A DNA stretch of 64,000 bases, taken from assembly GCA_951406725.2 (NCBI GenBank), contig OX597832.1, forward strand, positions 1 through 64,000. The letters run 5' to 3'. This DNA is from Octopus vulgaris (lineage: Eukaryota). The notes under the pieces are model-generated. The model did no database searches, had not been told where the DNA came from, and saw only the letters and a list, made by a program, of their open reading frames with translations. Positions 2,750-64,000 of this stretch are shown here, piece after piece; position 1 is the first letter of the stretch, and every line of letters begins with the position of its first letter. The position numbers and the translations under genes are program-made.

Positions 2750-4385
2750 TAACCTAGCTAAAACCAAAGTCTTAATAAGTAGGAAGGCAGACAAACCACA
2801 AATTCCTTCAGGTAGATGGTCCTGCTCAATCTGTAGAAAAGGCGTAGGTAGAAACTCTATAAGATGTACCCAGTATAAGCTATGGACACATAAGAGGTGC
2901 AGCAATATCAAAGGAAGGCTAACTGGGAAGATAGTTTTTGTATGTGGCAAATGCTCAGGAGCGATAAACACTGAAAATATGCAGAGAACAACTTCCGCCA
3001 CCTTCCAGGGAGAAAAACTAGAAGTAGTTGATAGCTTCCATTATCTAGGTGACCAAGTCAGTAGCAGGGGAGGGTGTGCTGAAAGTGTAGCTGCTAGAAT
3101 AAGAATAGCCTGGGCAAAGTTCAGAGAGCTCTTACCTCTGCTAGTGACAAAGGGGCTCTCGCTCAGAGTAAAAGGTAGACTGTATGATGCATGTGTACGA
3201 ACAACCATGCTACATGGCAGTGAAACATGAGCCATGACTGCTGAGGACATGCGTAAGCTTGCAAAGAATGAAGTCAGTATGCTCCGATGGATGTGTAATG
3301 TCAGTGTGCCTACTCGAGAGTGTAAGTACCTTGAGAGAAAAGTTGGACCTAAGAAGCATCAGATATCATGTGCAAGAGAGACGACTGTGCTGGTATGGTC
3401 ATGTGGTGAGAATGGATGAGGATAGCTGTGTGAAAAAGTGCCACACCCTAGTGCTTCACCACTTCATCCCAGGAAGACCTGGGATGAAGTGGTGAAGCAT
3501 GACCTTCGAACATTAGACCTCACCGAGGCAATGGCTAGTAACCGAGACCTTTGGAAATATGCAGTGCTTGAGAAGACCCGGCAAGCCAAATGAGACCATA
3601 ACCTGTGGCCTATGTCAGGGGTGTAACCAGCCCAATTATGCAAACCTTTTCTTCATTGGTCTGCTTGCGAAGACCTGTTGAGGCAAGTGAAATCGAAATC
3701 AAACCAAATTCGCAAATTTGGTGACTGGCATTCGTGCCAGTGGTGCACTAAGAGCACCATCTGGGCATGATCGCTGCCAGAGCAGCTGACTGGCAGTGGA
3801 ACGTAAAAAGCACCATTCAAACGTGATCATTACTAGTGTCACCTTACTGGCACTTGTACCAGTGGCATGTGAAAAACATTCAAGCGAGGTCATTGCCAGT
3901 GCCGCTGGGCTATCTCCTGTTGCCAGTACCTATTTCTTTATTACCCACAAGGGGCTAAACACAGAGGGGACAAACAAGGACAAACATAGGTATTAAGTCG
4001 ATTACATCGAGCCCAGTGTGTAACTGGTACTTAATTTATCGACCCCGTAAGGATGAAAGGCAAAGTCGGCCTCGGCGGAATTTGAACTCACAACGTAACG
4101 ACAGATGAAATACGGCTACGCATTTTGCCCGGCGTGCTAACGTTTCTGCCAGCTTGCCGCCTTTGTTGCCAGTACCACCTGACTGGCCCTCGTGCTGGTG
4201 GCACGTAAAAGCACTCACTACATTCTTGGAGTGGTTGGCATTAGGAAGGGTATCCAGCTGTAGAAACTCTGCCAGATCAGATTGGAGCCTGGTGTAGCCA
4301 TCTGGTTTGCCAGTCCTCAGTCAAATCGTCCAACCCATGCTAGCATTGGAAAGAGGACGTTAAACAATGACGATGATGATGATGA
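2750..4385 (+). mobile_element. 5'-truncated RTE-clade LINE (RT C-terminus with PHD-like Cys/His cluster, 3' UTR, (GAT)n tail), interrupted by a SINE
   Basis: NLAKTKV...YLGDQVSSRGGCAESVAARIRIAWAKFRELLPLL...KGRLYDACVRTTMLHGSET, MLRWMC, RLCWYGHVVRM; ends in GATGAT repeats at ~4368-4385. Homologous pieces recur at 38.6-39.5 kb and 45.8-48.2 kb. Confidence 0.85.
3931..4163 (-). mobile_element. Complete tRNA-derived SINE with 13-bp TSD; 3' tail matches the Tx1-like LINE 3' end
   Basis: TSD TGTTGCCAGTACC at 3918-3930 and 4164-4176. On the minus strand: head GGCGGCAAGCTGGCAGAAACGTTAGCA, B-box-like GAGTTCAAATTCC, tail TTGTCCCCTCTGTGTTTAGCCCCTTGTGGGTAATAAAGAAATA. Confidence 0.9.
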
Positions 4386-7316: not shown

Positions 7317-7547
7317 AGAGGCGCAATGGCCTAGTGGTTAGGGCAGCGGACTCGCGGTCGCAGGATCGCGGTTTCGATTCTCAGACCGGGCGTTGTGTGT
7401 GTTTATTGAGCGAAAACACCTAAAAGCTCTACGAGGCTCCGGCAGGGGGTGGTGATCCCTGCTGTACTCTTTCACCACAATGGCGGTGCCCCAGCATGGC
7501 CACAGCTCAAGAGCTGAAACTGGAAAAACAAAAAACAAAAAAAAAAA
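7317..7547 (+). mobile_element. tRNA-derived SINE in (TA)n, present only in the left arm
   Basis: GAGGCGCAATGGCCTAGTGGTTAGGGCAGCGG...GGTTTCGATTCTC head and A-rich tail; the equivalent right-arm site (13411-13440) is plain (TA)n. Confidence 0.85.
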
Positions 7548-7810
7548 TATATATATATATGTATTCCTCATATACCTTTTCATTACAATAATCCTAAGAT
7601 AGATTGATTATTTAAATTCCACTATTATTTCTCTTTTGATAATTTTCTCTTTCTTCTGTTTATATTTTATCTAATAAGAATAATATAATACACCTAATAA
7701 TAATAATAATTGATTCCTTCCTATGCATATACATATACATATAAATGTATAGATATGTATTTATGTCTATTTATGTATATGTATGTATTTATAACTTAGC
7801 CTTATGAAAC

Positions 7811-7943
7811 TTTCTAAACTTGCTGACAAAGCTCAGAGGCACACCCAAGTACCTTAATCTTATCTACCAAATACTTCAGTTCATTGAAGGGATGGAAGTA
7901 AAGTAGGGTGTTATGACCTCTTGGCTGAAACAGCTGTAAGAAA
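7811..7943 (+). ncRNA. Degenerate hammerhead-like motif (mirrored on - strand at ~13032-13163)
   Basis: CTGACAA (variant of CTGANGA), stem AGCTCAGAGG/CCTCTTGGCT, then GAAA-CAGCTG-TA with a palindromic stem III loop; stem I pairing is imperfect. Confidence 0.45.
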
Positions 7944-8176
7944 CTATTCTACTTTCTATATTCTATGTTATATATTTTAATAATTACTGGCATTTTTATA
8001 TTTTGTATATTATATATGTAAAGCATCATATGTTATACATGTATGTATATTGTTATAATTGTTTTTTTAAAAAATAAATAAATAGACATAATGTCTAAAA
8101 GTTGAATACCACTGCTTGATCCCCTCCATTTTCTTATTGCTATATATATGTATGTATATATATATATATATATATA

Positions 8177-11100
8177 TTAGAAGAAATGAGGTACTCAAAA
8201 ATTCGGACGGTTTTATATTTACAGATATTTATTTGTATATTACATATTTTTATACATCATATAACTTAGATCATATATTAGCACTTTCTCCCATTCTAGT
8301 GGGGTTTTCAAATCGAACTAAGTTCCTGTGTAAAAAGTTTTGACCATTTTATAGTGTTATTGAGTTTGTAGTGGTGGGGAGGAATATAAGACAGTACAAG
8401 AGGGTGATGGATGAGGAGAAAGTGAGAGAGAGAGAGAGTATGTGTGTGTGTGTGTGTGTTTTTGTATTTGGAAAGAGTGTTAAAGAAAAAAATTTTTGTT
8501 CTGCTGGACAGGATGTTTACTCCAAGTGGGGTCCAAGATCTTGGGGAAAAAAGATTTTTTGACCATTTCATAGTGTTATTGAGTGTGTAGTGGCAGGCAG
8601 GGACATAAGAAGGTAGACCATAAATTATATTTCCTTTTTATCATTGTGAGAGAGTGTTTATGTGTGTGTGTTTAATGAGGGATGGTCAAATGGTTTTGGG
8701 GTTTTAGAGAAGAAGAATTCTTTTTATTATTGTTTTGTGTAGGTGTGTATGTGTGTGGGTGTCTGTGAGGTTGGAGAAGGGAAGAAAGGAGAAGAAGAAG
8801 AAATAATTGTGTTGATATGTATACCACTATATATATATATATACTAAATGCTATACTATGTTAAATTGCAAATTGAAAGATTTGTCCTTCAATGTATGAT
8901 GAGCAAAATTTCATAAGGTCCATACTTGAAAAAGAGACTTTCTTGTGTTGAAGTTACAGATGACAGAATACAAACTGACAACTACTGAGTCTGTTGTCTG
9001 ATCTTCAATTGATTTAGTCTAATATCTCACTGATTGACAGCTAAATAAATATTAAGTTTTATCATACAGGAGCAACTGGTTCCACAAATTAAAGTGAAAT
9101 GGTTTCATTCAAATATTAGAATATCCTTTGTTCAATATTGTATTTTCAAAAATCAAAACATATGTGTAGAACTGTGTGTGTGTGTTTAATACAGTTTACT
9201 TAACAAATTTGGTCCTTCATCTGGTACAGCTTATAGAGATATTTTCAGCCATTCAATTTGGGGGAGAACTTAGTTATGAAATATTTTTCCATATTCCTCC
9301 TGAAGGAGGTATCGTTCTTTGGACATTTGTAGAAGGGAAAGATCTTAAATTTTCCTTCTCCACATGTATCTAGGTGTTTACTCAGTGGTATCTTGCGCAG
9401 TTCTTCCTGTCGGACATGTTGTCGGTGAATTCTGGCTCGTTGGCACAAAGAATTTCCAGTTTCACCTATGTAATCCTCCTTGCACGTGGGGCAGGTTATG
9501 CAGTATATAACGTTCTGCCTCTTGCAGTTCATATCTACATTTATTTTGAATATGTGCCCACTTTTAAATTTCATTTCTTTGTCTCCCTCTATGTATTTGT
9601 AGGTGGGGTTGCTGCAGATCCCACATCTACCATCTCTGCACTCTTTTACAAAGAATTCAGTTTTAGTTTCTGATGAGAATTTCTCTCTTGTTAGATGTTT
9701 CTTTCGGTTTTTGTCTTGTTTGTTGTCTACTGTTTTTTATGCAATATTTGTTTAGTATGTTTTCCATTTTAGGGCTTTGTAAGACTGTTGGCAGGTTTGA
9801 ATGTATGATTTGGAACATGTTGGTAACTCCAGGGTTGTGCGTGTTTATGAAAGGGATAATGTTTTCTTTGTTTTTTGTTTTGGGTGTCCTGAGTTGTGCG
9901 GTGTCTAGTTTCATTTTCTATTAGTTTAAGGGGGTTATTTTGCTCTAGTAGGAAGTTTTTAAGTTCATCTAGTCTTATTAGTCGTGTTTGTGAGTCAGTT
10001 ACTATGCTGCATGTGCATATTGCCATACTATATGGGATGGGTGGCAGGAGTGGAAATTTAAATATTGGTGTGTGTCGGTTTTTTTGTAGTGGATGTCTGT
10101 TGTGATGATGGAGTTGTGTATTTTGATGTTGATGTCTAGGAAGGGAAGTTCGTTGTGGATGGTATCTATTGTGAAGTTGATAGATGGGTGCAGTATGTCG
10201 AGGATGTCGTGGAATGTTCGTTGGTCTTCTGATCTGTTCCAAAAGATGAAGCAGTCATCGAGGTAGCGTTTCCACTTTTTCTTGATGTCTTCTCTGAAGT
10301 CGTGTTCGAAGACTTTCCCTATTTCATCGTATAGTTTGTTCTCCAGGAAACCCATCACCAGGTTGGCATATGAAGGTGCGAATTTTGTACCCATAGCCGT
10401 GCTCTTTATCTGTCGGTATGTCTTGTTGAATGAGAATGTATTTTCTTCGAGTATTAATTGGGTGGCTTGGGTGATAAAGTCTGTCTTGAAACGTTCGTCT
10501 ATGAGTTCACTGTATTTTTCTACCGATTGTTTTATTGCTTCCAGACCTAGGGTGTGTGGTATGTTCATGTATAGGTTTGTGACATCGAAGCTTGCAAGTA
10601 TGGTGTTTTTCGGAACTGTATTTGGAATGTGTGTGAGGAAGTCTATGTCATCCCTTATGTAGCTTGGTATCTGTGGGCATAAATGTTTGAGGAGTACATC
10701 TATGAAGTGGCTTAGTTGTTGTGCTGGTGCCTAGGGTCCTGCCACTATTGGTCTCATTGTGAGGTCTGCAGACCTTTGTATTCTTATATAGTGGTTCCTC
10801 TGTTCTTTTATGGCTCTCTGTATTTCAGAGCTTTTATGAATTTTAGGTAATCCATAAAAGTTGCTATCTTTGGTTCTTGAGTTGCATAGATAGTCTTTCT
10901 CCTTATCTGTAAAGGAGTCCTGGTATTCATTGACTAAAGTTCTAATTTTTTTATTGTTGCTTTCTCCGGTGGTGTTGGTTCCTCTTTATAGTATGTCTGG
11001 TTGTTCAGCAACTCCAGTATCTTTTCTTTGTAGTAATCTGTATCCATAATAACTATTGTTCCACCTTTGTCAGCTTCTTTTATAATAATCAACTTGTCAT

Positions 11101-13408: not shown

Positions 13409-13444
<36 letters not shown>

Positions 13445-20793: not shown

Positions 20794-21455
20794 ATGAAGT
20801 AGCAAAATGTTCCATTGGGTTCTGTCAAGGGTGTGTTATTCCAGGAGATTCTACCAACTCTCCCTTGATTGCTGTACCCTCTCAAGAAGAATCTCAAGTT
20901 AATATCATTGACTCTGTTAATCAACAAAATGTGGCATTCCTGAAACCATCTGACCATTTTGAAGGAAATAAATATGGTATGTGCATGGACATTGCTAAAA
21001 TGAAACATAACCAATCAGGACTCCTTATTGGTTATGAGAATGGATGTATTGCTTTGTGGGATATCAGAGAAAGAAAAATTATTGACTGTATTTCTTTGTA
21101 TGAAGAAATGGTAACGTGTGTTTGTTGTAGTGAATCTGGCCATGGTTGGTCAGGATCTGTAAATGACAAACTAACTCAGTGGTCTGTTTGTCAAGATAAT
21201 GGTTTCACTAAGTTGCCGGCTGTTCAGCTCACCAATTCAGGCATTAATCATATGAAATTAAGAAATGACGAAAGAATACTTGCAGTTGCAGGATGGGATT
21301 CAAACATAAGAATTTTGGGGACTAAAAAAGGGAAACCTCTTGCAGTTTTAAGTTACCATAAATTGAGTGTTAAGTGTGTTGCATTTTCAGACAATGACCT
21401 TCTTGCTGCTGGATCCCAAGATGGATCCATTAGTTTGTGGGATATCTATAGGTAG
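20794..21455 (+). CDS. GNB1L: GNB1L coding exon 2
   Basis: Acceptor TTTTACAG ending 20793, in frame with exon 1. SIGFC, YGMCM, LLIGYENGCIALWD, ILAVAGWDSNIRI, KPLAVLSYH, LLAAGSQDGSISLWDIYR*. Spliced CDS 960 nt = 319 aa. Confidence 0.9.
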
Positions 21456-51034: not shown

Positions 51035-51054
51035 TTTATATATATATATATATA

Positions 51055-52598
51055 CTAGCATTATGACCCTTTGTTGCCGGGTCATAGTGCTAGTGCATGT
51101 ATATATGTGTACATATTACATGTACATCTATATATATACATCTACACATAAAATACAAAGTTATATCTTGATATCGCTAGTGATAACAATACTCAAAATA
51201 TATAACAGACTGGAATTGTAGGCCCGTCTCTTGCAATTTCGATCAATTGTATTCTTGTCCTCCCTCTTGTATAGAAGTGTGGCTACAATCCTGCCTACCT
51301 CTACTTCTGGGGGGACATTTTTAAGGTAAAAATAAAATATTTCCACTTTGCAAGGTTTGAGTCGAGTACTCCTTTGCATGCTCCGTTGTCTCGAACCTTG
51401 CCTCTATTGTGGCGAATTTACCGCCTCTGGTTAGATACTTGATATCTTTCATAGTCGCACCAAGACACTTTTCGATGGTGCTTTCCTCCAGGTGTTAAAA
51501 TCTTTTTTTTTCTCTACATTGTATACTTTGTAGACAATAGTCTTTTCTTTAATTTAATTTTTTATTTTGTTTGGTGGTGTTATCCTAGATTCACCATCTT
51601 TGTTGGTGATCAATCCGAAATAGGTTTGTATTTCTTCCATTTTAATTGAGTTCGCGCCCGCTGACGGCTGCAGTGAAATTCATTTTTGGACTTTCTTCTT
51701 ACAAAAATGCTTCCGTATAAACGGTGAAAATATTGTCAATTTCCCCAAACAGAGACACAATTCAATTTTTAAACAATAACCAAAGCTCCTTCTCCCAAAG
51801 GAGGAGGGTTATGGTTTACAATTATTTAACAAATGCAACACAATAACGTTTCCCTTTTTGAGGAACAAACAAACGTGATAACAATAGTTAAACAGTAATA
51901 ATAATAACAAACCTTACGGTGAATCAAAAAGCAGTATGCAGTTGAAGCTAAAATCCTTTATGTATAAGAAATAAACCAATAGCAGTACTCAGTAGAAGCG
52001 GCCGTTCGAGAAAACAGACATTACATACTACCAAACTTCATATAGATACTTAATGCTAGCTAATTAGCAGATAATCTAATCTAATCTAAAAGGTATGTGC
52101 ACAGCTCCATCTGGACTATTCCATTTCTGCACACTAATTTTATTTTTAATTTATTCCCATTCATGTGAAACCACTTATTCAAGTTCAAGTCATTGATGCA
52201 ATTTTATACCAATTGCTATTTTTACTTTTGTTATGTTACGATTTAATTATTATATTATACTTTAGTTTGATTTTAATTATTACTTACTACATATAATTCA
52301 ATTGTTATTATTATCTCTAATTTTTATTGTTAAAGTGAAAGTATCTGACATAAAATAGAGAAATGTTTTTGTTTCACTTTTAACACGTAATACTGAAATA
52401 GTGGAGAAGATATGATATTGCTATGGGCTTGCCCTAGTCAAGAAGTTGAACATTTTTTTTGCCCATGAAACTACTTGGATGCTAAGTAAGGCATATGTTA
52501 AATTTGAATGAAATTGTTTGTGTAGTTCTCAAGTTTTAGGGAAACACACAGACAGACAGACACACATTCTCAGTTTTATATATATATATATATATATA
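51055..52598 (-). mobile_element. Non-autonomous Helitron-like element carrying a Tx1-like ORF1 fragment (copy A)
   Basis: CTAG end with hairpin CTAGCATTATGACCC..GGGTCATAGTGCTAG at 51055-51093; other end GACAGACAGACACACATTCTCAGTTTTATATA; internal ORF1-like peptide NVPPEVEVGRIVATLLYK. Confidence 0.65.
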
Positions 52599-53141
52599 CT
52601 AGCATTAAAGACCCGTCGTTGCCGGGTCATAGTGCTAGTGCATGTATATATGTGTACATATTTGTCTTGCAAACAACTTGCACGTGCAAGTGCTACCAGT
52701 TAAAAGCTCCATATATCGGAAGCTAGCAAGTGTATTGGGTCATCTACACATAAAATACAAAATACAAAGCTATATCTTGATATTGCTAGTGATAACAATA
52801 CTCAAAATACTCAAAATATATAACAGACTGGAATTGTTAGCCCGTCTCTTGTAATTTCGATCAATTGTATCTTGTCCACTCCCTCTTGTATAGAAGTGTG
52901 GCTACAATCCTGCCTACCTCTACTTCGGGGGGTGGGGTGGGGGGCATTAAAAATTTTTTTCCGGAACGTCCTACGTCCCAGATATAAAGGTAAAAATAAG
53001 ATATTTCCACTTTGTAAGTTCGAGTCGAGTACTCCCTTGCATGCTCCGTTGACTCGAACCTTGCTTCTATTGTGGCGAATTTACCACCTCTGATACCTTT
53101 CATAGTCGCACCAAGACACTTTTCGAAGGCGCTTTCCTCCA
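52599..53141 (-). mobile_element. Second tandem copy (B) of the same Helitron-like element, interrupted by the Tx1-like array
   Basis: Colinear with 51055-51490 up to CTTTCCTCCA. Peptide EESAFEKCLGATMKGIRGGKFATIEARFES is homologous to ORF1 EEKKIENCLKPIMDKITYINRGKKYGTVEVRFTS. Confidence 0.75.
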
Positions 53142-53390
53142 TGTTGTTTTATTATTACCCACAAGGGGCGAACACAGATGGGACAATACAATCTGATGAT
53201 GGGGTCAGACAAACGAATGGGTTTTTACAATAAATCGGGTTTAAAAATTTTCATGAATAACAATAAATGGACAAAAATCGAGTGATAGGACAGACCGGAA
53301 GACATTACGGGTGGAGTGGGTGCGGGTTTAGCTCGGACCCCACGAGCCCCGCCTCCCCACTGATACTTTTGGTTGCACTTGGTATTACAT

Positions 53391-56300
53391 TTATGTTGTA
53401 ACTTTCATTCGCAACTTCCGTGCTACATCCTTCCATCGTTCTTCATACGCTCTCCTAGTCAGGCATATTCTCTCCAGCCCTATCTTCCTTTTCAGGTGAA
53501 AGATGAAATAATTCATCAAACCAGGGCCGGAGATGAACTTGCCTGACTGTAAACCTTTCATTCTCGTCTTCCATATCACCTCTTTCGCGATTGCTACTAC
53601 AACGAGAAAACGAAACTTACCTTCATTCACGAGGAAATCCGGTGGGTCAATTTTTGTAATCGACTCAGTCGACAGCTGTACTCTTCGTGTACCTGACAAC
53701 AGGTGTTCGGCATAAACCCACACCTCAGACACGTCCGGACAATGAACAATCGCGTGCGGGACGGTTTCCCTATCCCGCCCGCATCTTGGACATATCGGAC
53801 TGTCTTGGCCACCGTGCCTTGCGAGTTTATCCCGAACAGGTAGAGCTCCTCTGTAGCATTGCCATGCCAGAGACTTCTGGAAGTTGTCCAGTGTCCTTGG
53901 CTCGAACGTACGTCGGAACAGACTGGCCAGCTGATTATCGTCGAGACCTAGGGTTTCCCCCAAGGTATCTTCACATTCCGCCTCTACCAACCCTCTATAG
54001 AAGAAAGTGGTGGAACCCCCACCGCAGGCGTTGCCCGAGCGACGGAATAGCAGGAGAGCCTTGCGACACTCCGTGTACCAAGTACCAAGTTTCGATCTAC
54101 GATTCAGCCAGGTTTCCCATCCACCGAAACTAGTGAACTTGGGAAACATCAGTTTTGCTAGCGAAGACCACACCCGTTCACCATCCAGGTAGAGCCACAG
54201 ATGTCTTAACCTCAGCGCATGTCTGCGCATCATCAGCCAAGGCATCCCTAGCCCACCCTTTAACGGTTGTTGACAGCAAGTAGAGCGTTTCACAAGTGGT
54301 TTCCCGCCCTTCCACAAGAAGTAGAAGAGCTGTCTTTCCAACTTGATCAACCACGAATCAGGGCAAGGAACGACGGAAAGGCGGTAGGTGATAACCGATG
54401 CGATAAACACATTGGCCACCTCCGCCCTCCCTTTCAGGGATAGCCACCGCCAAGACCAGGTCTTGGCTACTGCAGCCACCTTGCTCGTTACCTCGCCCCA
54501 ATTCTTCTCTATTTGGAGGTCTGGACCGAACCAGACCCCTAGCAGTTTAATCGGACCCTCCGTCCAACGTCCCACGACGCTGTCAGGAGGCATCGACTTG
54601 CCTCTCCAGGTGCCGAGTTGCAAGCCGACTGACTTTTCGCGATTAACTTTTGCTCCTGTCACCGTCTCGTACACCTCTATGGCCTTGCCTACTTTACATA
54701 GGTGGTCCATTTCGGTTACGATGATGGTGATGTCATCCGCGTACGCTGACACTGATTTTCCATTACCTGGCTGTCTCGGGATGCCGCTCAGTTTTCGCAG
54801 TAATGGCTCAAGAGCCATCACGTACAAAAGCGGGGAGAGCGGACACCCTTGACGAACCGAGCGTTTGATTTTGAACGGCTTCGACAAGAAGCCGTTCACC
54901 CGAACTACCGAGTCGATGTTATCATAAATTTCGATAATCCACCTGAGGAATCCAAGGCTCAGCCCGAACTGTGCCAGGGCAGATACCAGGTAACGATGGT
55001 CGACCCTATCAAAAGCTTTAGATTGGTCTAAATGGACCAGTGCCCCACCCTTGCCAGAATCACTATTAAACCCCTCTATAGTGTACCGCATTAGATGGAG
55101 ATTATCCTGAATGGATCTGCCCGGAACGGCACATGTCTGTGCCCCTCCGATCAGACCATCCGCGACACGCGCCAATCTTTTCGATAACACTTTGGCCAAA
55201 ATCTTCAACTCTGTGTTTAGCAGAGTGATGGGCCTGAAATTATCAATGCACTCCCCCTTGCTCGGGTCCTTTCTGACGAGAGTCACTACTCCCCGGCGCA
55301 CAGATCTGGGTATAAGCCCGTTCTGCTGCCAGTTCGCGTAGACCTCCGCCAGTAGGTGCCCGAACAAGTCTGGCATACTCTTATATAACTCATAGGGTAG
55401 ACCATCCAAACCCGGCGCCTTGCCCGCGCCGCAGTCTGCCATTGCCTCAACCACCTCCTCAGGCGTGATTGGCCCTTCACAGCCCTCCGCATCTCGCCCC
55501 GATAAGCGCGGCAGACCGTCGAGTAGGTCCGTAAAGGCCCTCCTCCTATCCAGTCCGCCGCACTCACCGAAAAGCTGAGCGAAGTGCTCCTGAAAGGCCT
55601 CACACATCTCCTCGGGTTCGTTTATCAACTCACCTTGTTGGTTCGTCAAAGATCGAATCGTGGCATCGTTACCATGCTGAGCTTCCACCACTCGGGCCCA
55701 TCTCACGGCGTTGATTCCTTCACATCCCATATGACGGATTCTAGCCCTGACAATGCAGCCCATGTGTTTGGCCTCGAGGTGCTGGTTTAACACCAGTCTC
55801 TTGGCCGCCACCTGAGCCGCAGAGCCAGTTTTCATGGCTTCCTCTAATTCCTTAACTAGAGTAGTTTCCCTTCTAGCCTCTCTAGACACTACTCCTATGC
55901 TATATCTAATAGACTCAAACTTGATGGCTCGTTTGAGGGCGTACCACCATTTGTTATTAATGATGGTACCAGATAGTGCCCTCTGAATTATATTCCTAAT
56001 CCGGTCTTTGTACTCCTTAATCGCCAAAAGGGACGTATTAAGTTTCCAGTAACCGGATCCTCTATTTTTAACCTTATCTATGTCAAGCTTACAAGTGACC
56101 ATTTTATGATCACTGTAGCTGATCGGGTAAAACTGTGGACACTTAGCTATTTTACTGTCTACTTTTCTAATTAGTATTCTATCTAGATACGACCTGGAAG
56201 ATCCGTCGCTGTTTGACCATGTCCACAATGGAGCGTTCGGAAATTCCAGCCTATAAGGATCTGCTAGCTCAAAGCGGCTTAGCAGTTCCATGAAGCCACT

Positions 56301-56786
56301 GTTGCCTTTTCTATCTGGACACGAGCCAACATAATCTACATCCGCTTTGCAAATTGTGTTAAAGTCTCCTAGCACCACTAATGAATGCGAAGTACCAAGA
56401 AAGTTTTCTATTTCACGAAAATAATCACTTTGCCCTGTATGGTTGGGTGCGTAAATTGCAACCAGTCTGATAACTTTACCATTACTGAACGTCAAATCCA
56501 TGACGACCAGCCTACCTTCTGGATCTGCAAAAATTAACTTTTTCTCAGAAACCCGGTTTCTTTTTAATAGGACCAACACCCCACTCCCGCCTGTAGGACT
56601 GCCAGGAGAGAAAAAACTCTCGTAGCCGTCAAACAGCGGGAGTAGACCTCTTGGCCCCTCTAGCCGGGTTTCTGTAGCAACAATAACATCTAAATTACGC
56701 GACCTGATATCATGCAGGAAGCGACCTTGCTTCCAGCCTGCTCCCAGGCCGCGCACATTTAAACAACCAACATAAATGTAATCCAT
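53391..56786 (-). CDS. ORF2: APE endonuclease + reverse transcriptase + C-terminal zinc motif (1131 aa), copy 1
   Basis: LNVRGL, IYAPN, LGDFN, RSYLDRIL, SDH, GYWKLNTSLL, KAPGLDGLP, FRPITLLN, DQSKAFDRV, RQGCPLSPLLY, YADD, GGLG, CPRC..ETVPHAIVHC. Confidence 0.97.
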   Translation of the reverse strand: MDYIYVGCLNVRGLGAGWKQGRFLHDIRSRNLDVIVATETRLEGPRGLLPLFDGYESFFSPGSPTGGSGVLVLLKRNRVSEKKLIFADPEGRLVVMDLTFSNGKVIRLVAIYAPNHTGQSDYFREIENFLGTSHSLVVLGDFNTICKADVDYVGSCPDRKGNSGFMELLSRFELADPYRLEFPNAPLWTWSNSDGSSRSYLDRILIRKVDSKIAKCPQFYPISYSDHKMVTCKLDIDKVKNRGSGYWKLNTSLLAIKEYKDRIRNIIQRALSGTIINNKWWYALKRAIKFESIRYSIGVVSREARRETTLVKELEEAMKTGSAAQVAAKRLVLNQHLEAKHMGCIVRARIRHMGCEGINAVRWARVVEAQHGNDATIRSLTNQQGELINEPEEMCEAFQEHFAQLFGECGGLDRRRAFTDLLDGLPRLSGRDAEGCEGPITPEEVVEAMADCGAGKAPGLDGLPYELYKSMPDLFGHLLAEVYANWQQNGLIPRSVRRGVVTLVRKDPSKGECIDNFRPITLLNTELKILAKVLSKRLARVADGLIGGAQTCAVPGRSIQDNLHLMRYTIEGFNSDSGKGGALVHLDQSKAFDRVDHRYLVSALAQFGLSLGFLRWIIEIYDNIDSVVRVNGFLSKPFKIKRSVRQGCPLSPLLYVMALEPLLRKLSGIPRQPGNGKSVSAYADDITIIVTEMDHLCKVGKAIEVYETVTGAKVNREKSVGLQLGTWRGKSMPPDSVVGRWTEGPIKLLGVWFGPDLQIEKNWGEVTSKVAAVAKTWSWRWLSLKGRAEVANVFIASVITYRLSVVPCPDSWLIKLERQLFYFLWKGGKPLVKRSTCCQQPLKGGLGMPWLMMRRHALRLRHLWLYLDGERVWSSLAKLMFPKFTSFGGWETWLNRRSKLGTWYTECRKALLLFRRSGNACGGGSTTFFYRGLVEAECEDTLGETLGLDDNQLASLFRRTFEPRTLDNFQKSLAWQCYRGALPVRDKLARHGGQDSPICPRCGRDRETVPHAIVHCPDVSEVWVYAEHLLSGTRRVQLSTESITKIDPPDFLVNEGKFRFLVVVAIAKEVIWKTRMKGLQSGKFISGPGLMNYFIFHLKRKIGLERICLTRRAYEERWKDVARKLRMKVTT

Positions 56787-56795
56787 TACTTACCT

Positions 56796-58172
56796 TTATA
56801 TCAGTGGTTCGGTTTTTTCTTCTTCTTCCTTCTCTTTTTCTGGGCCTCGTGGGGGAGTCTGACGTAGGCCCTCGAATATATGTGGAGATGTTACATCCAA
56901 CCTAAGTGGGCCTACGTCATGGAAGAATTCTGACTTTATCCGCCCGTAATCCTTCCGGTCTATTTTGTAAATTAGAAAGTCATTTTTTTTCTCTACTCTC
57001 TTCACATTGGCCATGGCTGCCAACACGTTTCCGAGTCTGCTATTTGATGCTTTTACGGCCATATATGAGTTCATTGACTCTTTTTTCTTTTTTAAAATTA
57101 CTCTGGGAGGGGTGGTTTCCGTTTTTCTTTTTTTTTTCCGATAATTTTTGCCCACCCCTCCTCATTTATCTTTTCCTCGCTCTTTTTTTCTCCGCCGCTG
57201 GTTCTGCTGTTACCATCACCTCCACACCTTCAGTCTTCCCTTCTGGGCCGTCTGACGCTGCTTCTGGTGACACATTGTCTTCTTTTCCTTTTGGCTTAGG
57301 TGCTTCCTGCGGTTTGGGTTGGGGCTGGCATTCCGCCCTTACATGCCCCTTCTTACTGCAGCCGAAGCACCTCGGCTTTCTGCCCTCTACGAAGACTGTG
57401 ACTCTTTCATCTTCGCTTATCCTAAGAGTCTCTGGGATCTCTTCCAGGGTTTGTACTTCTGCTTGTATGGCTATTATTATCTTTTGCCCTTTCCAGAATT
57501 CTTCTTCTTCTACGGTGGCCTGGAGGATGTTTATTTTTTCCTCCAGGCCTACCATAACTGCTGCTACTAGGACTTCGGCATCCGCTTCTGGCGGGATGTT
57601 GTTCATAGTGATTTTGGAAGTTCTCTTGCCTTTATACAGGGGTAGGAGAACAATATCCTCCGCTTTTATGGGTTCCATGGATAGCTTCTTCGCTACCTCC
57701 TCTGACGTGAATCTCACCTCCACTGTGCCGTATTTCTTCCCTCGATTGATATATGTAATTTTATCCATTATTGGCTTTAAGCAGTTTTCAATCTTTTTCT
57801 CCTCTATTTTTTGGATTGCTCTGTTTGTTATACTGAATGTCTTATAGATTATTCTCCTATTCGAAATATCCTCCTGTATTTGGGCGTTTGAAGCCACGGT
57901 TACTTCCGTGCCCTCTTTTGACACACAGTCCGCATGTTTTCCCAGGTTGTCCACGTTAATTTTTTTAATTTTCTTCCCAGCCACTTCAGCGAATTTTTTT
58001 GCTGGAGTTGATGCTGGTACTGGTTTTACCATTTTCTTGGGCGACGCCGCCTCTTTTTTCTTCGGCGACAGCGCCTCTTTTTTTCTTGGCGACAACGCCT
58101 CTTTTTACTTGGCGACAACGCCGGGTATTCATCCTCGCTCGTCACGGGCGAATAAGTGATGGGGGACTCCAT
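56796..58172 (-). CDS. ORF1 (gag-like, CCHC knuckle), copy 1; probably one ORF broken at A-homopolymers
   Basis: ATG at 58172 (MESPITYSP..), SPxK repeats, CFGCSKKGHVRAEC. Track ORFs 57166-58095 and 56796-57155 join if the A-runs are adjusted by 1 nt. Confidence 0.8.
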
Positions 58173-58648
58173 TTTGAACAAATGGCTTTAACAAGCCTTT
58201 GGTAATCTAAATTGATTGTAGTTTTCCCCCACTGAGGGGGGAACACCAACGCGAAGTCTTCGCGCGAAGGTTGACTTCGTCCGTTAGACAACAATGGACA
58301 AAAAAAGGTAGACCAACAGTATATAATAACAGAGATAAGTAGTATGAGAGCAAAAATATATATCAACTTACTAATAACGCAATAAATTGATTTCCTCCAT
58401 GTTGTTTTATTATTACCCACAAGGGGCGAACACAGATGGGACAATACATTCTGATGATGGGGTCAGACAAACGAATGGGTTTTTACAATAAATCGGGTTT
58501 AAAAATTTTCATGAATAACAATAAATGGACAGAAATCGAGTGATAGGACAGACCGGAAGACATTACGGGTGGAGTGGGTGCGGGTTTAGCTCGGACCCCA
58601 CGAGCCCCGCCTCCCCACTGATACTTTTGGTTGCACTTGGTATTACAT

Positions 58649-61600
58649 TTATGTTGTAACTTTCATTCGCAACTTCCGTGCTACATCCTTCCATCGTTCT
58701 TCATACGCTCTCCTAGTCAGGCATATTCTCTCCAGCCCTATCTTCCTTTTCAGGTGAAAGATGAAATAATTCATCAAACCAGGGCCGGAGATGAACTTGC
58801 CTGACTGTAAACCTTTCATTCTCGTCTTCCATATCACCTCTTTCGCGATTGCTACTACAACGAGAAAACGAAACTTACCTTCATTCACGAGGAAATCCGG
58901 TGGGTCAATTTTTGTAATCGACTCAGTCGACAGCTGTACTCTTCGTGTACCTGACAACAGGTGTTCGGCATAAACCCACACCTCAGACACGTCCGGACAA
59001 TGAACAATCGCGTGCGGGACGGTTTCCCTATCCCGCCTGCATCTTGGACATATCGGACTGTCTTGGCCACCGTGCCTTGCGAGTTTATCCCGAACAGGTA
59101 GAGCTCCTCTGTAGCATTGCCATGCCAGAGACTTCTGGAAGTTGTCCAGTGTCCTTGGCTCGAACGTACGTCGGAACAGACTGGCCAGCTGGTTATCGTC
59201 GAGACCTAGGGTTTCCCCCAAGGTATCTTCACATTCCGCCTCTACCAACCCTCTATAGAAGAAAGTGGTGGAACCCCCACCGCAGGCGTTGCCCGAGCGA
59301 CGGAATAGCAGGAGAGCCTTGCGACACTCCGTGTACCAAGTACCAAGTTTCGATCTACGATTCAGCCAGGTTTCCCATCCACCGAAACTAGTGAACTTGG
59401 GAAACATCAGTTTTGCTAGCGAAGACCACACCCGTTCACCATCCAGGTAGAGCCACAGATGTCTTAACCTCAGCGCATGTCTGCGCATCATCAGCCAAGG
59501 CATCCCTAGCCCACCCTTTAACGGTTGTTGACAGCAAGTAGAGCGTTTCACAAGTGGTTTCCCGCCCTTCCACAAGAAGTAGAAGAGCTGTCTTTCCAAC
59601 TTGATCAACCACGAATCAGGGCAAGGAACGACGGAAAGGCGGTAGGTGATAACCGATGCGATAAACACATTGGCCACCTCCGCCCTCCCTTTCAGGGATA
59701 GCCACCGCCAAGACCAGGTCTTGGCTACTGCAGCCACCTTGCTCGTTACCTCGCCCCAATTCTTCTCTATTTGGAGGTCTGGACCGAACCAGACCCCTAG
59801 CAGTTTAATCGGACCCTCCGTCCAACGTCCCACGACGCTGTCAGGAGGCATCGACTTGCCTCTCCAGGTGCCGAGTTGCAAGCCGACTGACTTTTCGCGA
59901 TTAACTTTTGCTCCTGTCACCGTCTCGTACACCTCTATGGCCTTGCCTACTTTACATAGGTGGTCCATTTCGGTTACGATGATGGTGATGTCATCCGCGT
60001 ACGCTGACACTGATTTTCCATTACCTGGCTGTCTCGGGATGCCGCTCAGTTTTCGCAGTAATGGCTCAAGAGCCATCACGTACAAAAGCGGGGAGAGCGG
60101 ACACCCTTGACGAACCGAGCGTTTGATTTTGAACGGCTTCGACAAGAAGCCGTTCACCCGAACTACCGAGTCGATGTTATCATAAATTTCGATAATCCAC
60201 CTGAGGAATCCAAGGCTCAGCCCGAACTGTGCCAGGGCAGATACCAGGTAACGATGGTCGACCCTATCAAAAGCTTTAGATTGGTCTAAATGGACCAGTG
60301 CCCCACCCTTGCCAGAATCACTATTAAACCCCTCTATAGTGTACCGCATTAGATGGAGATTATCCTGAATGGATCTGCCCGGAACGGCACATGTCTGTGC
60401 CCCTCCGATCAGACCATCCGCGACACGCGCCAATCTTTTCGATAACACTTTGGCCAAAATCTTCAACTCTGTGTTTAGCAGAGTGATGGGCCTGAAATTA
60501 TCAATGCACTCCCCCTTGCTCGGGTCCTTTCTGACGAGAGTCACTACTCCCCGGCGCACAGATCTGGGTATAAGCCCGTTCTGCTGCCAGTTCGCGTAGA
60601 CCTCCGCCAGTAGGTGCCCGAACAAGTCTGGCATACTCTTATATAACTCATAGGGTAGACCATCCAAACCCGGCGCCTTGCCCGCGCCGCAGTCCGCCAT
60701 TGCCTCGACCACCTCCTCAGGCGTGATTGGCCCTTCACAGCCCTCCGCATCTCGCCCCGATAAGCGCGGCAGACCGTCGAGTAGGTCCGTAAAGGCCCTC
60801 CTCCTATCCAGTCCGCCGCACTCACCGAAAAGCTGAGCGAAGTGCTCCTGAAAGGCCCCACACATCTCCTCGGGTTCGTTTATCAACTCACCTTGTTGGT
60901 TCGTCAAAGATCGAATCGTGGCATCGTTACCATGCTGAGCTTCCACCACTCGGGCCCATCTCACGGCGTTGATTCCTTCACATCCCATATGACGGATTCT
61001 AGCCCTGACAATGCAGCCCATGTGTTTGGCCTCGAGGTGCTGGTTTAACACCAGTCTCTTGGCCGCCACCTGAGCCGCAGAGCCAGTTTTCATGGCTTCC
61101 TCTAATTCCTTAACTAGAGTGGTTTCCCTTCTAGCCTCTCTAGCCACTACTCCTATGCTATATCTAATAGACTCAAACTTGATGGCTCGTTTGAGGGCGT
61201 ACCACCATTTGTTATTAATGATGGTACCAGATAGTGCCCTCTGAATTATATTCCTAATCCGGTCTTTGTACTCCTTAATCGCCAAAAGGGACGTATTAAG
61301 TTTCCAGTAACCGGATCCTCTATTTTTAACCTTATCTATGTCAAGCTTACAAGTGACCATTTTATGATCACTGTAGCTGATCGGGTAAAACTGTGGACAC
61401 TTAGCTATTTTACTGTCTACTTTTCTAATTAGTATTCTATCTAGATACGACCTGGAAGATCCGTCGCTGTTTGACCATGTCCACAATGGAGCGTTCGGAA
61501 ATTCCAGCCTATAAGGATCTGCTAGCTCAAAGCGGCTTAGCAGTTCCATGAAGCCACTGTTGCCTTTTCTATCTGGACACGAGCCAACATAATCTACATC

Positions 61601-62044
61601 CGCTTTGCAAATTGTGTTAAAGTCTCCTAGCACCACTAATGAATGCGAAGTACCAAGAAAGTTTTCTAGTTCACGAAAATAATCACTTTGCCCTGTATGG
61701 TTGGGTGCGTAAATTGCAACCAGTCTGATAACTTTACCATTACTGAACGTCAAATCCATGACGACCAGCCTACCTTCTGGATCTGCAAAAATTAACTTTT
61801 TCTCAGAAACCCGGTTTCTTTTTAATAGGACCAACACCCCACTCCCGCCTGTAGGACTGCCAGGAGAGAAAAAACTCTCGTAGCCGTCAAACAGCGGGAG
61901 TAGACCTCTTGGCCCCTCTAGCCGGGTTTCTGTAGCAACAATAACATCTAAATTACGCGACCTGATATCATGCAGGAAGCGACCTTGCTTCCAGCCTGCT
62001 CCCAGGCCGCGCACATTTAAACAACCAACATAAATGTAATCCAT
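58649..62044 (-). CDS. ORF2 (1131 aa), copy 2
   Basis: Same motifs as copy 1; four amino-acid differences seen (REIE/RELE, VSRE/VARE, CEAF/CGAF, RCGR/RCRR). Confidence 0.97.
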   Translation of the reverse strand: MDYIYVGCLNVRGLGAGWKQGRFLHDIRSRNLDVIVATETRLEGPRGLLPLFDGYESFFSPGSPTGGSGVLVLLKRNRVSEKKLIFADPEGRLVVMDLTFSNGKVIRLVAIYAPNHTGQSDYFRELENFLGTSHSLVVLGDFNTICKADVDYVGSCPDRKGNSGFMELLSRFELADPYRLEFPNAPLWTWSNSDGSSRSYLDRILIRKVDSKIAKCPQFYPISYSDHKMVTCKLDIDKVKNRGSGYWKLNTSLLAIKEYKDRIRNIIQRALSGTIINNKWWYALKRAIKFESIRYSIGVVAREARRETTLVKELEEAMKTGSAAQVAAKRLVLNQHLEAKHMGCIVRARIRHMGCEGINAVRWARVVEAQHGNDATIRSLTNQQGELINEPEEMCGAFQEHFAQLFGECGGLDRRRAFTDLLDGLPRLSGRDAEGCEGPITPEEVVEAMADCGAGKAPGLDGLPYELYKSMPDLFGHLLAEVYANWQQNGLIPRSVRRGVVTLVRKDPSKGECIDNFRPITLLNTELKILAKVLSKRLARVADGLIGGAQTCAVPGRSIQDNLHLMRYTIEGFNSDSGKGGALVHLDQSKAFDRVDHRYLVSALAQFGLSLGFLRWIIEIYDNIDSVVRVNGFLSKPFKIKRSVRQGCPLSPLLYVMALEPLLRKLSGIPRQPGNGKSVSAYADDITIIVTEMDHLCKVGKAIEVYETVTGAKVNREKSVGLQLGTWRGKSMPPDSVVGRWTEGPIKLLGVWFGPDLQIEKNWGEVTSKVAAVAKTWSWRWLSLKGRAEVANVFIASVITYRLSVVPCPDSWLIKLERQLFYFLWKGGKPLVKRSTCCQQPLKGGLGMPWLMMRRHALRLRHLWLYLDGERVWSSLAKLMFPKFTSFGGWETWLNRRSKLGTWYTECRKALLLFRRSGNACGGGSTTFFYRGLVEAECEDTLGETLGLDDNQLASLFRRTFEPRTLDNFQKSLAWQCYRGALPVRDKLARHGGQDSPICPRCRRDRETVPHAIVHCPDVSEVWVYAEHLLSGTRRVQLSTESITKIDPPDFLVNEGKFRFLVVVAIAKEVIWKTRMKGLQSGKFISGPGLMNYFIFHLKRKIGLERICLTRRAYEERWKDVARKLRMKVTT

Positions 62045-62053
62045 TACTTACCT

Positions 62054-63430
62054 TTATATCAGTGGTTCGGTTTTTTCTTCTTCTTCCTTCTCTTTTTCTG
62101 GGCCTCGTGGGGGAGTCTGACGTAGGCCCTCGAATATATGTGGAGATGTTACATCCAACCTAAGTGGGCCTACGTCATGGAAGAATTCTGACTTTATCCG
62201 CCCGTAATCCTTCCGGTCTATTTTGTAAATTGCAAAGTCATTTTTTTTTCTACTCTCTTCACATTGGCCATGGCTGCCAACACGTTTCCGAGTCTGCTAT
62301 TTGATGCTTTTACGGCCATATATGAGTTCATTGACTCTTTTTTCTTTTTTAAAATTACTCTGGGAGGGGTGGTTTCCGTTTTTCTTTTTTTTTTTCCGAT
62401 AATTTTTGCCCACCCCTCCTCATTTATCTTTTCTTCGCTCTTTTTTTCTCCGCCGCTGGTTCTGCTGTTACCATCACCTCCACACCTTCAGTCTTCCCAT
62501 CTGGGCCGTCTGACGCTGCTTCTGGTGACACATTGTCTTCTTTTCCTTTTGGCTTAGGTGCTTCCTGCGGTTTGGGTTGGGGCTGGCATTCCGCCCTTAC
62601 ATGCCCCTTCTTACCGCAGCCGAAGCACCTCGGCTTTCTGCCCTCTACGAAGACTGTGACTCTTTCATCTTCGCTTATCCTAAGAGTCTCTGGGATCTCT
62701 TCCAGGGTTTGTACTTCTGCTTGTATGGCTATTATTATCTTTTGCCCTTTCCAGAATTCTTCTTCTTCTACGGTGGCCTGGAGGATGTTTATTTTTTCCT
62801 CCAGGCCTACCATAACTGCTGCCACTAGGACTTCGGCATCCGCTTCTGGCGGGATGTTGTTCATAGTGATTTTGGAAGTTCTCTTGCCTTTATACAGGGG
62901 TAGGAGAACAATATCCTCCGCTTTTATGGGTTCCATGGATAGCTTCTTCGCTACCTCCTCTGACGTGAATCTCACCTCCACTGTGCCGTATTTCTTCCCT
63001 CGATTGATATACGTAATTTTATCCATTATTGGCTTTAAGCAGTTTTCAATCTTTTTCTCCTCTATTTTTTGGATTGCTCTGTTTGTTATACTGAATGTCT
63101 TATAGATTATTCTCCTATTCGAAATATCCTCCTGTATTTGGGCGTTTGAAGCCACGGTTACTTCCGTGCCCTCTTTTGACACACAGTCCGCATGTTTTCC
63201 CAGGTTGTCCACGTTAATTTTTTTAATTTTCTTCCCAGCCACTTCAGCGAATTTTTTTGCTGGAGTTGATGCTGGTACTGGTTTTACCATTTTCTTGGGC
63301 GACGCCGCCTCTTTTTCTTCGGCGACAGCGCCTCTTTTTTTCTTGGCGACAACGCCTCTTTTTTACTTGGCGACAACGCCGGGTATTCATCCTCGCTCGT
63401 CATGGGCGAATAAGTGATGGGGGACTCCAT
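62054..63430 (-). CDS. ORF1, copy 2 (homopolymer frameshifts partly at different sites from copy 1)
   Basis: ATG at 63430; track ORF 62424-63290 with CFGCGKKGHVRAEC. Confidence 0.8.
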
Positions 63431-63657
63431 TTTGAACAAATGGCTTTAACAAGCCTTTGGTAATCTAAATTAATTGTAGTTTTCCCCCACTGAGGGGGGA
63501 ACACCAACGCGAAGTCTTCGCGCGAAGGTTGACTTCGTCCGTTAGACAACAATGGACAAAAAAAGGTAGACCAACAGTATATAATAACAGAGATAAGTAG
63601 TATGAGAGCAAAAATATATATCAACTTACTAATAACGCAATAAATTGATTTCCTCCA

Positions 63658-64000
63658 TGTGATTTTATTACTACCCACAAGGGGCGAACATAGAGGGGAC
63701 AATACAATCGGGGAACTTAAAATAAGAAAGCGAAATGACAAGAAGGGAAAAAATAAAAATAAAAATGACAAATGAAAGAATATTTACAATGAGATGCAAA
63801 TGCCCACTCGATCCCCGGAATCGAGAGGTTACATTTTCGTCACATATAGTTCACAATTTTTTTTTCCTTTTTTCTCTTCTTTCTTCTCTCTCCTCTCACA
63901 ATCTCACACGTATTCCATAATACCTTTCAAGTCTCTAAAGTCAATCACTGAGCCCTCAGGCAGCCGCTCTTTCATTCGAACACCCGTGTAAAAAATTACA
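63658..64000 (-). mobile_element. 3' end of a third, different element sharing only the terminal ~50 nt with the Tx1-like LINE
   Basis: TACCCACAAGGGGCGAACATAGAGGGGACAATACAATC at ~63673-63709, after which the sequence is unrelated to the copy 1/2 3' UTR; runs off the window. Confidence 0.8.

What the first reader, a model, noticed from the sequence alone, without database searches (positions are those of the whole stretch)
3931..4163. tRNA-SINE whose 3' tail matches the 3' end of the Tx1-like LINE 49 kb away: a SINE/LINE partnership in the L1/Tx1 clade
Seen (+ strand): SINE TTATTACCCACAAGGGGCTAAACACAGAGGGGACAA-ACAA (from 3938) versus LINE TTATTACCCACAAGGGGC-GAACACAGATGGGACAATACAA (from 53152) and third element TTACTACCCACAAGGGGC-GAACATAGAGGGGACAATACAA. 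The SINE is complete with a 13-bp TSD. In the sense RNA the shared tail can form a small hairpin GCCC-CUUGU-GGGU just before the A-rich end. Known: shared 3' tails mark 'stringent' SINE/LINE pairs in CR1, L2 and RTE, whereas mammalian L1 recognises poly(A) only. Inference: this Tx1-like ORF2 recognises a structured 3' tail and mobilises the SINE. The SINE's TSD lacks TGGAGGAAA, so either targeting is relaxed in trans or a sister LINE family mobilised it.
Basis: partly seen in the sequence, partly recalled or inferred. Interest (0 to 1): 0.8.

Follow-up and report, generated by a model that had tools for sequence, protein, structure and literature searches.

The report
Octopus SINE borrows Tx1 LINE tail
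A very abundant short jumping element ends in the same 45–60 bases as a whole lineage of Tx1-like long jumping elements in this genome, and it likely uses that predicted hairpin tail to be copied by their enzyme, a kind of partnership that our literature searches found for this enzyme group only in plants and a green alga.

Summary
The 233-bp element at 3931–4163 (minus strand, 13-bp target-site duplication) shares 40 of 45 terminal bases with the window's Tx1-like LINE. The tail is not private to that LINE: nearly all sampled Tx1-like families of the genome end in a U-rich box, a small hairpin and AATAAA. Stem sequences differ between families while pairing is kept (93% of cells paired). Sampled CR1-, RTE- and R4-like LINEs lack the tail. 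The SINE is very abundant (55 tails in 400 random kb) and often occurs as tandem multimers. The window's LINE is probably not its mobiliser: it is far younger (0.2% versus about 5% divergence), uses another target, and sister families match the SINE tail better. A stringent-type SINE/Tx1 partnership is therefore likely, with an older sister family as partner; recognition by ORF2 is inferred, not shown. Extra finding: 70% of exact tails are followed by GGTA, the bases that follow the tail in SINE multimers, so read-through RNA may help pick the target. Tail-sharing pairs are known for plant and algal L1s, and Tx1 mobilisation of crocodilian SINEU was inferred from target choice. Repbase, Dfam and SINEBase could not be checked.

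The parts
3931..4163 (-). SINE monomer, 233 bp: head with A-box/B-box-like motifs, central body, Tx1-type 3' tail
   Evidence: (40 full-length genome hits at 94-100%)
3918..3930 (-). 3' copy of the 13-bp target-site duplication, beginning GGTA
4164..4176 (-). 5' copy of the 13-bp target-site duplication
3931..3990 (-). LINE-derived tail of the SINE (U-rich box, hairpin, AATAAAGAAATA); homology reaches 45 nt with the window LINE and up to 66 nt with family E
3943..3955 (-). Predicted terminal hairpin of the SINE
53142..58390 (-). Full-length Tx1-like LINE, copy 1 (family A1)
53391..56789 (-). ORF2 of copy 1, 1131 aa: APE endonuclease, reverse transcriptase, zf-RVT
57166..58104 (-). ORF1 frame of copy 1 (312 aa stop to stop) with a CCHC knuckle
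   Evidence: weak zf-CCHC hit on the near-identical copy 2
53144..53191 (-). 3' tail of LINE copy 1 shared with the SINE; hairpin at 53157-53169
58400..63648 (-). Full-length Tx1-like LINE, copy 2, in tandem (ORF2 58649-62047, ORF1 frame 62424-63362, tail about 58402-58449)
53133..53141 (-). 9-bp target-site repeat TGGAGGAAA; further copies at 58391-58399 and 63649-63657
63658..64000 (-). 3' part of the third element: ORF1-only Tx1-like element (about 1.77 kb, to G000:C19:65428) with the same tail (63660-63707)
52581..53141 (-). Downstream part of the target repeat into which the LINE array inserted; it carries a decayed Tx1-like ORF1 fragment. An empty sister copy lies at about 51037-51640

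Best explanation
The SINE carries a 3' tail shared with the genome's Tx1-like LINE lineage, and it is likely copied in trans by an ORF2 protein of that lineage that is predicted to recognise the tail's small hairpin; the partner was likely an older sister family and not the young family in the window. Shown: shared tail, its presence across Tx1-like families and absence from sampled CR1/RTE/R4-like LINEs, 10-24 bp duplications, a pyrimidine just before the duplication, subfamily-linked target starts, age mismatch with the window LINE. Inferred: tail taken from LINE to SINE (the LINE tails diverge along the LINE tree while the SINE tail is uniform); Pol III transcription without a terminator, giving multimeric RNA; ORF2 binding at the hairpin; endonuclease nicking and target-primed reverse transcription starting 5-6 nt after AATAAA with no poly(A).
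For: Tail in 30 of 30 window-family copies and in families whose ORF2 is 57-95% identical to the window's. A hairpin of at least 3 pairs with a 4-6 nt loop ending in purine-U sits just before AATAAA in 26 of 27 chosen Tx1-like representatives against 7% of 886 control AATAAA sites; the unchanged rule passes 37 of 46 further ends (54 fetched, 8 without a located end). RNAalifold predicts the 3-bp stem unaided; 93% of 87 cells pair, all 3 pairs have double changes, 0 of 500 shuffles reach the score, and slid registers give 28-66%. Stems include GCCC/GGGU, ACC/GGU, AACCU/AGGUU, GAUU/AAUC and its reverse AAUC/GAUU. Controls: SINE-tail alignment score at most 24 in 29 correctly oriented CR1- and RTE-like loci and 16-18 in 6 R4/Dong-like ends, against 60-76 in Tx1-like families A and B, 48-74 in E and 44-54 in C1/C2. 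In 400 random kb, 60 tail hits were 55 SINEs, 2 truncated SINE-like pieces and 3 ends of another Tx1-type family. SINE duplications: median 15 bp, found in 74 of 99 head-bearing copies; base before the duplication is C or T in 39 of 41; Tx1-like duplications are 9-20 bp. Ages: SINE 4.7% from column majority (window copy 6.7%), families E 2.9-6.1%, B2-4 2.2%, window family 0.2%.
Against: No experiment shows that the tail is needed or bound. Single tails do not fold better than shuffles. The 29 aligned rows are related, so the covariation reflects only a handful of independent changes, and the held-out ends come largely from the same families. No single family matches the whole SINE tail: the upstream half matches family E and the hairpin half families A/B/C. 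No Tx1-like end followed by GGT was found among 64 rows (some duplicated) and none with GGTA among 46 more, so the direct partner of the window SINE's subfamily is unidentified. AT-stem families score only 22-38 against the SINE tail, near the control range. L2, Hero and R2 clades were not sampled. The window-family age is biased young because best hits were used.
Confidence: 0.78

Rival explanations
1. The window's own LINE family (A1) mobilised this SINE, with targeting relaxed in trans.
For: It is intact, shares 40 of 45 tail bases, and both its target (CAY-GG) and the SINE's (AY-GGTA) contain pyrimidine-GG.
Against: Family divergence 0.2% versus 6.7% for the SINE copy; its end reads AATAATAAAAC, the SINE's AATAAAGAAATA as in families B, C and E; 25 of 30 copies sit at TGGAGGAAA-type sites while SINE targeting is itself strongly biased, not relaxed.
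Confidence: 0.06
2. The tail is conserved as a transcript 3'-end processing signal (UG-rich box plus AAUAAA), not as an ORF2 handle; the SINE picked it up by a template switch and is copied by a relaxed, L1-like ORF2 without needing it.
For: AATAAA is the most conserved part of the alignment; the hairpin is weak (about -1 to -6.6 kcal/mol); mammalian L1, the closest solved relative, is relaxed (PMC4176376).
Against: Copies have no poly(A) and stop 5-6 nt after AATAAA, too close for ordinary cleavage and polyadenylation (own knowledge). 12 of 18 terminal SINE tails in the random sample have AGTAAA instead yet keep the hairpin. The ORF1-only non-autonomous element retains exactly this tail.
Confidence: 0.13
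3. A LINE of another clade (RTE, L2, R4, Hero) is the true partner and the Tx1 likeness is a relic of an earlier tail capture.
For: RTE elements also make 10-15 bp duplications (own knowledge) and are abundant; no Tx1-like family with the GGTA target was found.
Against: Sampled RTE-, CR1- and R4-like ends have unrelated tails ending in short tandem repeats; the SINE has no terminal microsatellite; the tail is kept intact in most SINE copies.
Confidence: 0.03

Closest known systems
Stringent L1-clade pairs: maize/sorghum ZmSINE2 and ZmSINE3 with LINE1-1_ZM; Chlamydomonas SINEX-3_CR with L1-1_CR (Ohshima 2012, PMC3472496, first third of the text read; Ohshima 2013, PMC3747384, passages and Table 1)
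   Same: About 45-50 nt shared 3' end, hairpin with compensatory changes, conserved loop and 3' flank with variable stem, L1 superclade enzyme.
   Different: Here an animal genome and a target-preferring Tx1-like lineage; no poly(A) or poly(T) end; the 58-pair table lists no Tx1 partner and no cephalopod.
Crocodilian SINEU families mobilised by Tx1-Mar (Kojima 2015, PMC4494074, parts 2 and 3 of 5 read)
   Same: A SINE attributed to Tx1 machinery; Tx1 families that prefer other transposons as targets; tandem insertions.
   Different: SINEU has snRNA heads and poly(A); its link to Tx1 rests on shared targets and heads, and the paper reports no LINE matching the SINEU-1 3' half. Here the link is a shared tail, and targets are not shared with the sampled families.
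Stringent L2/CR1 pairs such as eel UnaSINE1/UnaL2 and zebrafish ZfL2-1/2-2 (Hayashi 2014, PMC4176376, passages)
   Same: ORF2 recognition of a small 3' stem-loop is the proposed mechanism.
   Different: Shown experimentally there, inferred here; those tails end in tandem repeats and belong to another clade.
Mollusc SINE-LINE partnerships (Nishihara 2016 PMC4824008, Matetovici 2016 PMC4758252, Martelossi 2024 PMC11481361; passages)
   Same: 35-61 bp tail homology at 72-95% identity between mollusc SINEs and LINEs.
   Different: Partners reported are CR1, CR1-Zenon, L2 and Nimb; none of the passages seen names L1 or Tx1.
Octopus tRNA-SINEs OK, OR1, OR2 (Ohshima and Okada 1994; not held, seen only as cited; OR1/OR2 cited as CORE-SINEs)
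   Same: Abundant octopus tRNA-type SINEs; this family is probably one of them or present in public repeat libraries.
   Different: Sequences could not be compared, so identity is untested; no partner LINE is named in the citing passages seen.

Membership tests
tRNA-derived SINE (SINEBase definition, PMC3531059) | Short, interspersed, at least 100 copies | tested here: met
   233 bp; 18,536 and 12,990 exact genome matches to two tail variants, of which 42 of 43 and 29 of 30 inspected had the SINE body upstream
tRNA-derived SINE (SINEBase definition, PMC3531059) | At least 60% identity to a tRNA over 60 nt | tested here: inconclusive
   No Rfam hit; z at most 1.6 against 30 tRNA loci of 8 types only; A/B-box-like motifs seen by eye
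tRNA-derived SINE (SINEBase definition, PMC3531059) | Pol III transcription from an internal promoter | not testable with these tools
   Multimers flanked by one duplication imply read-through transcripts but not the polymerase
L1/Tx1 non-LTR retrotransposon | ORF2 with N-terminal APE endonuclease, RT and C-terminal zinc finger, closest to L1 | tested here: met
   Pfam PF03372, PF00078, PF13966; best PDB match human L1 ORF2p E 3.7e-65 versus R2 4.9e-26
Tx1 clade | ORF1 with a CCHC zinc knuckle | tested here: met
   zf-CCHC E 7e-5 in the third element, weak (E 0.048) in the LINE ORF1; Atlas look-alikes with zf-CCHC and ZCCHC3
Tx1 clade | Sequence- or repeat-specific insertion with target duplication | tested here: met
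   20 of 30 copies in one repeat site, 5 in tandem at the same 9-mer; family D at one 17-bp site
Tx1 clade | RT groups with named Tx1 elements rather than L1 | tested here: inconclusive
   Octopus families plus P0001 form one clade (100/99) apart from CR1- and RTE-like rows, but no named animal Tx1 or L1 reference was in the tree; the one row named TX1 (P0022, fungal) is not adjacent
Stringent SINE/LINE pair | Shared 3'-terminal sequence | tested here: met
Stringent SINE/LINE pair | Stem-loop with compensatory changes | tested here: met
   (comparative only; related rows)
Stringent SINE/LINE pair | Tail confined to the partner clade | tested here: met
   Absent from sampled CR1-like (one family), RTE-like (three groups) and R4-like (one family) ends; L2, Hero, R2 not sampled
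Stringent SINE/LINE pair | Concurrent activity of SINE and partner | tested here: inconclusive
   Not met by the window family (0.2% vs 4.7%); met in age by families E (2.9-6.1%), whose hairpin half differs from the SINE's
Stringent SINE/LINE pair | Tail required for mobilisation or bound by ORF2 | not testable with these tools
   Needs a retrotransposition or binding assay
Octopus OR1/OR2 CORE-SINEs | Sequence identity to the published consensus and CORE domain | not testable with these tools
   Consensus sequences not held; motif look-ups in supplements found nothing and one file of each paper was not searchable

The most novel reading that the evidence does not exclude
An animal Tx1-clade ORF2 uses stringent hairpin recognition to drive one of the largest octopus SINE families, and the landing site is written in the RNA: bases read through beyond the tail (GGUAUUU in multimeric transcripts) pair with the nicked DNA, so target preference is inherited with the source locus and differs between SINE subfamilies, while the endonuclease only asks for a pyrimidine before the cut.
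Probability: 0.35. Interest if true: 0.7.

Novelty: new variant of a known kind. Interest (0 to 1): 0.52.

Why it matters
Whether poly(A)-only recognition by mammalian L1 is a derived, relaxed state is an open question, and the published stringent examples in the L1 superclade come from grasses and a green alga. A Tx1-like lineage in an animal with a covarying terminal hairpin, no poly(A), intact young copies and a natural non-autonomous partner gives a ready test system: more than ten natural stem variants and cognate ORF2s for swap experiments. It also names the likely engine of a SINE family with roughly 140 tails per Mb in a group whose SINE expansion is often discussed. If target choice depends on read-through RNA, it would offer a simple route by which Tx1 families change targets quickly.

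Tried and rejected
Rejected: chance similarity; the tail being a SINE fragment captured in one LINE's 3' UTR (homologous tails occur across families down to 57% ORF2 identity); the tail being target sequence (flanks vary after it). Hunting the direct partner: a DNA search with family E and a pattern aimed at non-SINE upstream sequence gave family E and an older SINE subfamily but no family with the full SINE tail and a GGTA target. Monomers versus multimers: GGT starts were 43 of 65 versus 3 of 17 in the pooled, selected set (p 6e-4), but 3 of 11 versus 2 of 7 in the random sample, so this test is confounded by selection and not counted. Endonuclease comparison: sister subfamilies with other targets differ at 19-26 of about 236 residues, so it cannot separate enzyme- from RNA-set targeting. 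Relaxed ARAGORN calls were too noisy to use. Metagenome scans for the tail and for relative P0002 found nothing, so no cross-species test. Expression: no RNA holder listed; contigs of four runs of unrecorded kind cover the LINE end but show nothing about transcription. One of 30 RT loci (L239) was read on the wrong strand and is dropped. Several ends were mis-anchored, which was replaced. Earlier-finding look-ups by sequence and place were empty.

Full report
Setting. The window is the first 64 kb of contig C19 of G000, a 2.8-Gb animal genome.

Observation. The SINE lies at 3931-4163 on the minus strand between copies of a 13-bp duplication. Its last 45 nt match the 3' ends of three elements at the other end of the window: two tandem 5.25-kb LINE copies (99.5% identical) and a third element. 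The shared 18-mer occurs 4 times exactly, against 0.13 expected. The LINE has a 312-aa ORF1 frame and an intact 1131-aa ORF2 with APE endonuclease, RT and zf-RVT; its best solved relative is human L1 ORF2p. The third element continues beyond the window as a 1.77-kb element with only a 423-aa ORF1 frame (36% identical to the LINE's over 186 aa, zinc knuckle), then the tail.

The tail belongs to the lineage. All 30 best genome hits to the window LINE end carry it. A zf-RVT search scored 150 of 25,803 candidates; I read most of these ends plus 30 loci of a further family. Families from 57% to 95% ORF2 identity end in a U-rich box, a hairpin and AATAAA(GA), with no poly(A). Among 27 hand-chosen representatives, 26 have a stem of at least 3 pairs with a 4-6 nt loop ending in purine-U directly before AATAAA, against 7% of 886 control sites. 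The rule was made from these sequences; applied unchanged it passes 37 of 46 further ends (54 fetched, 8 with no end located), though many are from the same families. On a MAFFT alignment of 27 LINE-type and 2 SINE tails, RNAalifold predicts a 3-bp stem with covariation; 93% of cells pair, slid registers give 28-66%, and no shuffle of 500 reaches the score. Relatedness inflates these figures, but stems as different as GCCC/GGGU, AACCU/AGGUU, GAUU/AAUC and AAUC/GAUU are hard to explain without selection on pairing. Single tails do not fold better than shuffles.

Controls. CR1-like (23 loci, one family) and RTE-like loci (6) score at most 24 against the SINE tail and, where the end was reached, finish in unrelated tails with short repeats (one further locus dropped for wrong strand). 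Six R4/Dong-like ends score 16-18. Tx1-like families A and B score 60-76, E 48-74 and C1/C2 44-54; AT-stem families score 22-38. In 400 kb taken without selection, 60 tail hits were 55 SINEs, 2 truncated SINE-like pieces and 3 ends of another Tx1-type family. Clade names for the controls rest on the RT tree and recalled motifs. L2, Hero and R2 were not sampled.

Which family is the partner? Probably not the window's. It diverges 0.2% from its column majority (best hits, so biased young), the SINE 4.7% (random sample), the window SINE copy 6.7%; families E lie at 2.9-6.1%. The SINE ends AATAAAGAAATA like families B, C and E, not AATAATAAAAC. Its upstream half is nearly identical to family E (55 matches over 66 nt) and its hairpin half to A/B/C, so the donor is an unsampled, extinct or recombined family. 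The window family has its own target: 20 of 30 copies sit in one site of a repeat carrying a decayed Tx1-like ORF1 fragment (40% over 57 aa), and 5 more are tandem at the same 9-mer.

SINE insertion signature. Duplications have a median of 15 bp (74 of 99 head-bearing copies; search floor 10 bp), like those of the Tx1-like families. The base before the duplication is a pyrimidine in 39 of 41 clear cases, matching the pyrimidine-purine step cut by L1-type endonucleases on the other strand (own knowledge). Of 18,536 exact matches to one tail variant, 13,020 (70%) are followed by GGTA (background 0.27%); 5,891 match the tandem junction exactly. Multimers are common (22 of 40 tails in the random sample are internal) and dimers to a 7-mer are flanked by a single duplication, so read-through RNA exists, and in it the tail is followed by GGUAUUU. 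Non-tandem copies of the GGGTAAT variant start their duplication with GGT in 40 of 59 cases, those of the GGGCAAT variant mostly with AGA or TAT (21 of 30; p 4e-9; selected sets). None of the Tx1-like ends read is followed by GGTA. This fits pairing of read-through RNA with the primer, but different partner endonucleases at different times would give the same pattern, and AGAA also occurs inside the tail itself. The monomer/multimer contrast did not hold in the random sample. I put RNA-assisted targeting at about even odds given the partnership.

Mechanism. Shown: shared tail, clade restriction in the sample, covariation, duplications, target bias, multimers, ages. Inferred: the SINE acquired a Tx1-like 3' end; it is transcribed by Pol III without a terminator; a Tx1-like ORF2 binds the hairpin region in trans, nicks after a pyrimidine step and reverse-transcribes from 5-6 nt past AATAAA. 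The main rival, a 3'-processing signal plus a relaxed enzyme, is weakened by the lack of poly(A) and by 12 of 18 terminal SINE tails having AGTAAA, but is not excluded.

Known context. [quoted passage not shown] Kojima 2015 (PMC4494074, parts 2-3) links SINEU to Tx1 by target and head, not tail. Bivalve and gastropod papers name CR1, CR1-Zenon, L2 and Nimb partners (passages). An O. vulgaris annotation (PMC13282606, first third and its one supplement) lists 13 recently active L1-Tx1 families and 893 unclassified SINE families, with no partner statement in what I saw; Marino 2022 (passages) likewise. Kojima 2018 has no mention of Tx1 or octopus in its main text. Eight full-text searches showed no report of this pair, but subscription papers (including Ohshima and Okada 1994), Repbase, Dfam and SINEBase sequences, and one supplementary file each of two papers were out of reach and could hold it. 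The SINE family itself is very likely known.

Verdict. A real feature; a new variant of a known kind (stringent SINE/LINE pair, here with an animal Tx1-like lineage). Confidence in the partnership at lineage level 0.78; interest 0.52.

Noticed in passing
window 51037-51640 and 52581-53141 (minus strand); L061:1930-3000: The LINE's preferred target is a decayed Tx1-like ORF1 fragment carried by a short abundant repeat whose 3' end looks Helitron-like (small hairpin, CTAG, then AT repeats; motif recalled, not tested). A LINE targeting a captured piece of its own clade.
   Followed up: partly
window 63658-64000, G000:C19 to 65428 (L061:151-1929, minus): ORF1-only non-autonomous Tx1-like element with the shared tail and the same target, comparable to HAL1-type elements.
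   Followed up: partly
L098-L104, L132: Tx1-like family D (1140-aa ORF2) inserts at one 17-bp site in a repeat, sometimes in tandem.
   Followed up: partly
L123, L131, L084, L412: Related families insert just before CTGATGA...GAAAC-like motifs that recall hammerhead or Penelope terminal repeats; not tested.
   Followed up: no
L122/L246, L119, L354/L355/L390: Other Tx1-like families sit in microsatellites: the (ATT)n tail of a CR1-like element, (CT)n and (ATCT)n.
   Followed up: no
L436 (G000:C4:70753634-70754834): Tx1-like end with the GGGC tail variant followed by AGAA, the signature of the older SINE subfamily; a candidate direct partner, single copy seen.
   Followed up: no
L353-L392 (random 400 kb): 50 of 124 SINE matches stop at SINE positions 135-175, suggesting the same head and body exist with other tails.
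   Followed up: no
L150-L155, L145: SINE arrays with a 184-bp period, up to seven units inside one target duplication.
   Followed up: partly
window 7547-9210 and 11770-13426: A 1.66-kb inverted duplication at 99.3% identity flanking decayed Penelope-like frames (9245-10730).
   Followed up: no
window 20748-21455 (+): A 235-aa open frame that reads like WD40 repeats, probably a host gene exon.
   Followed up: no
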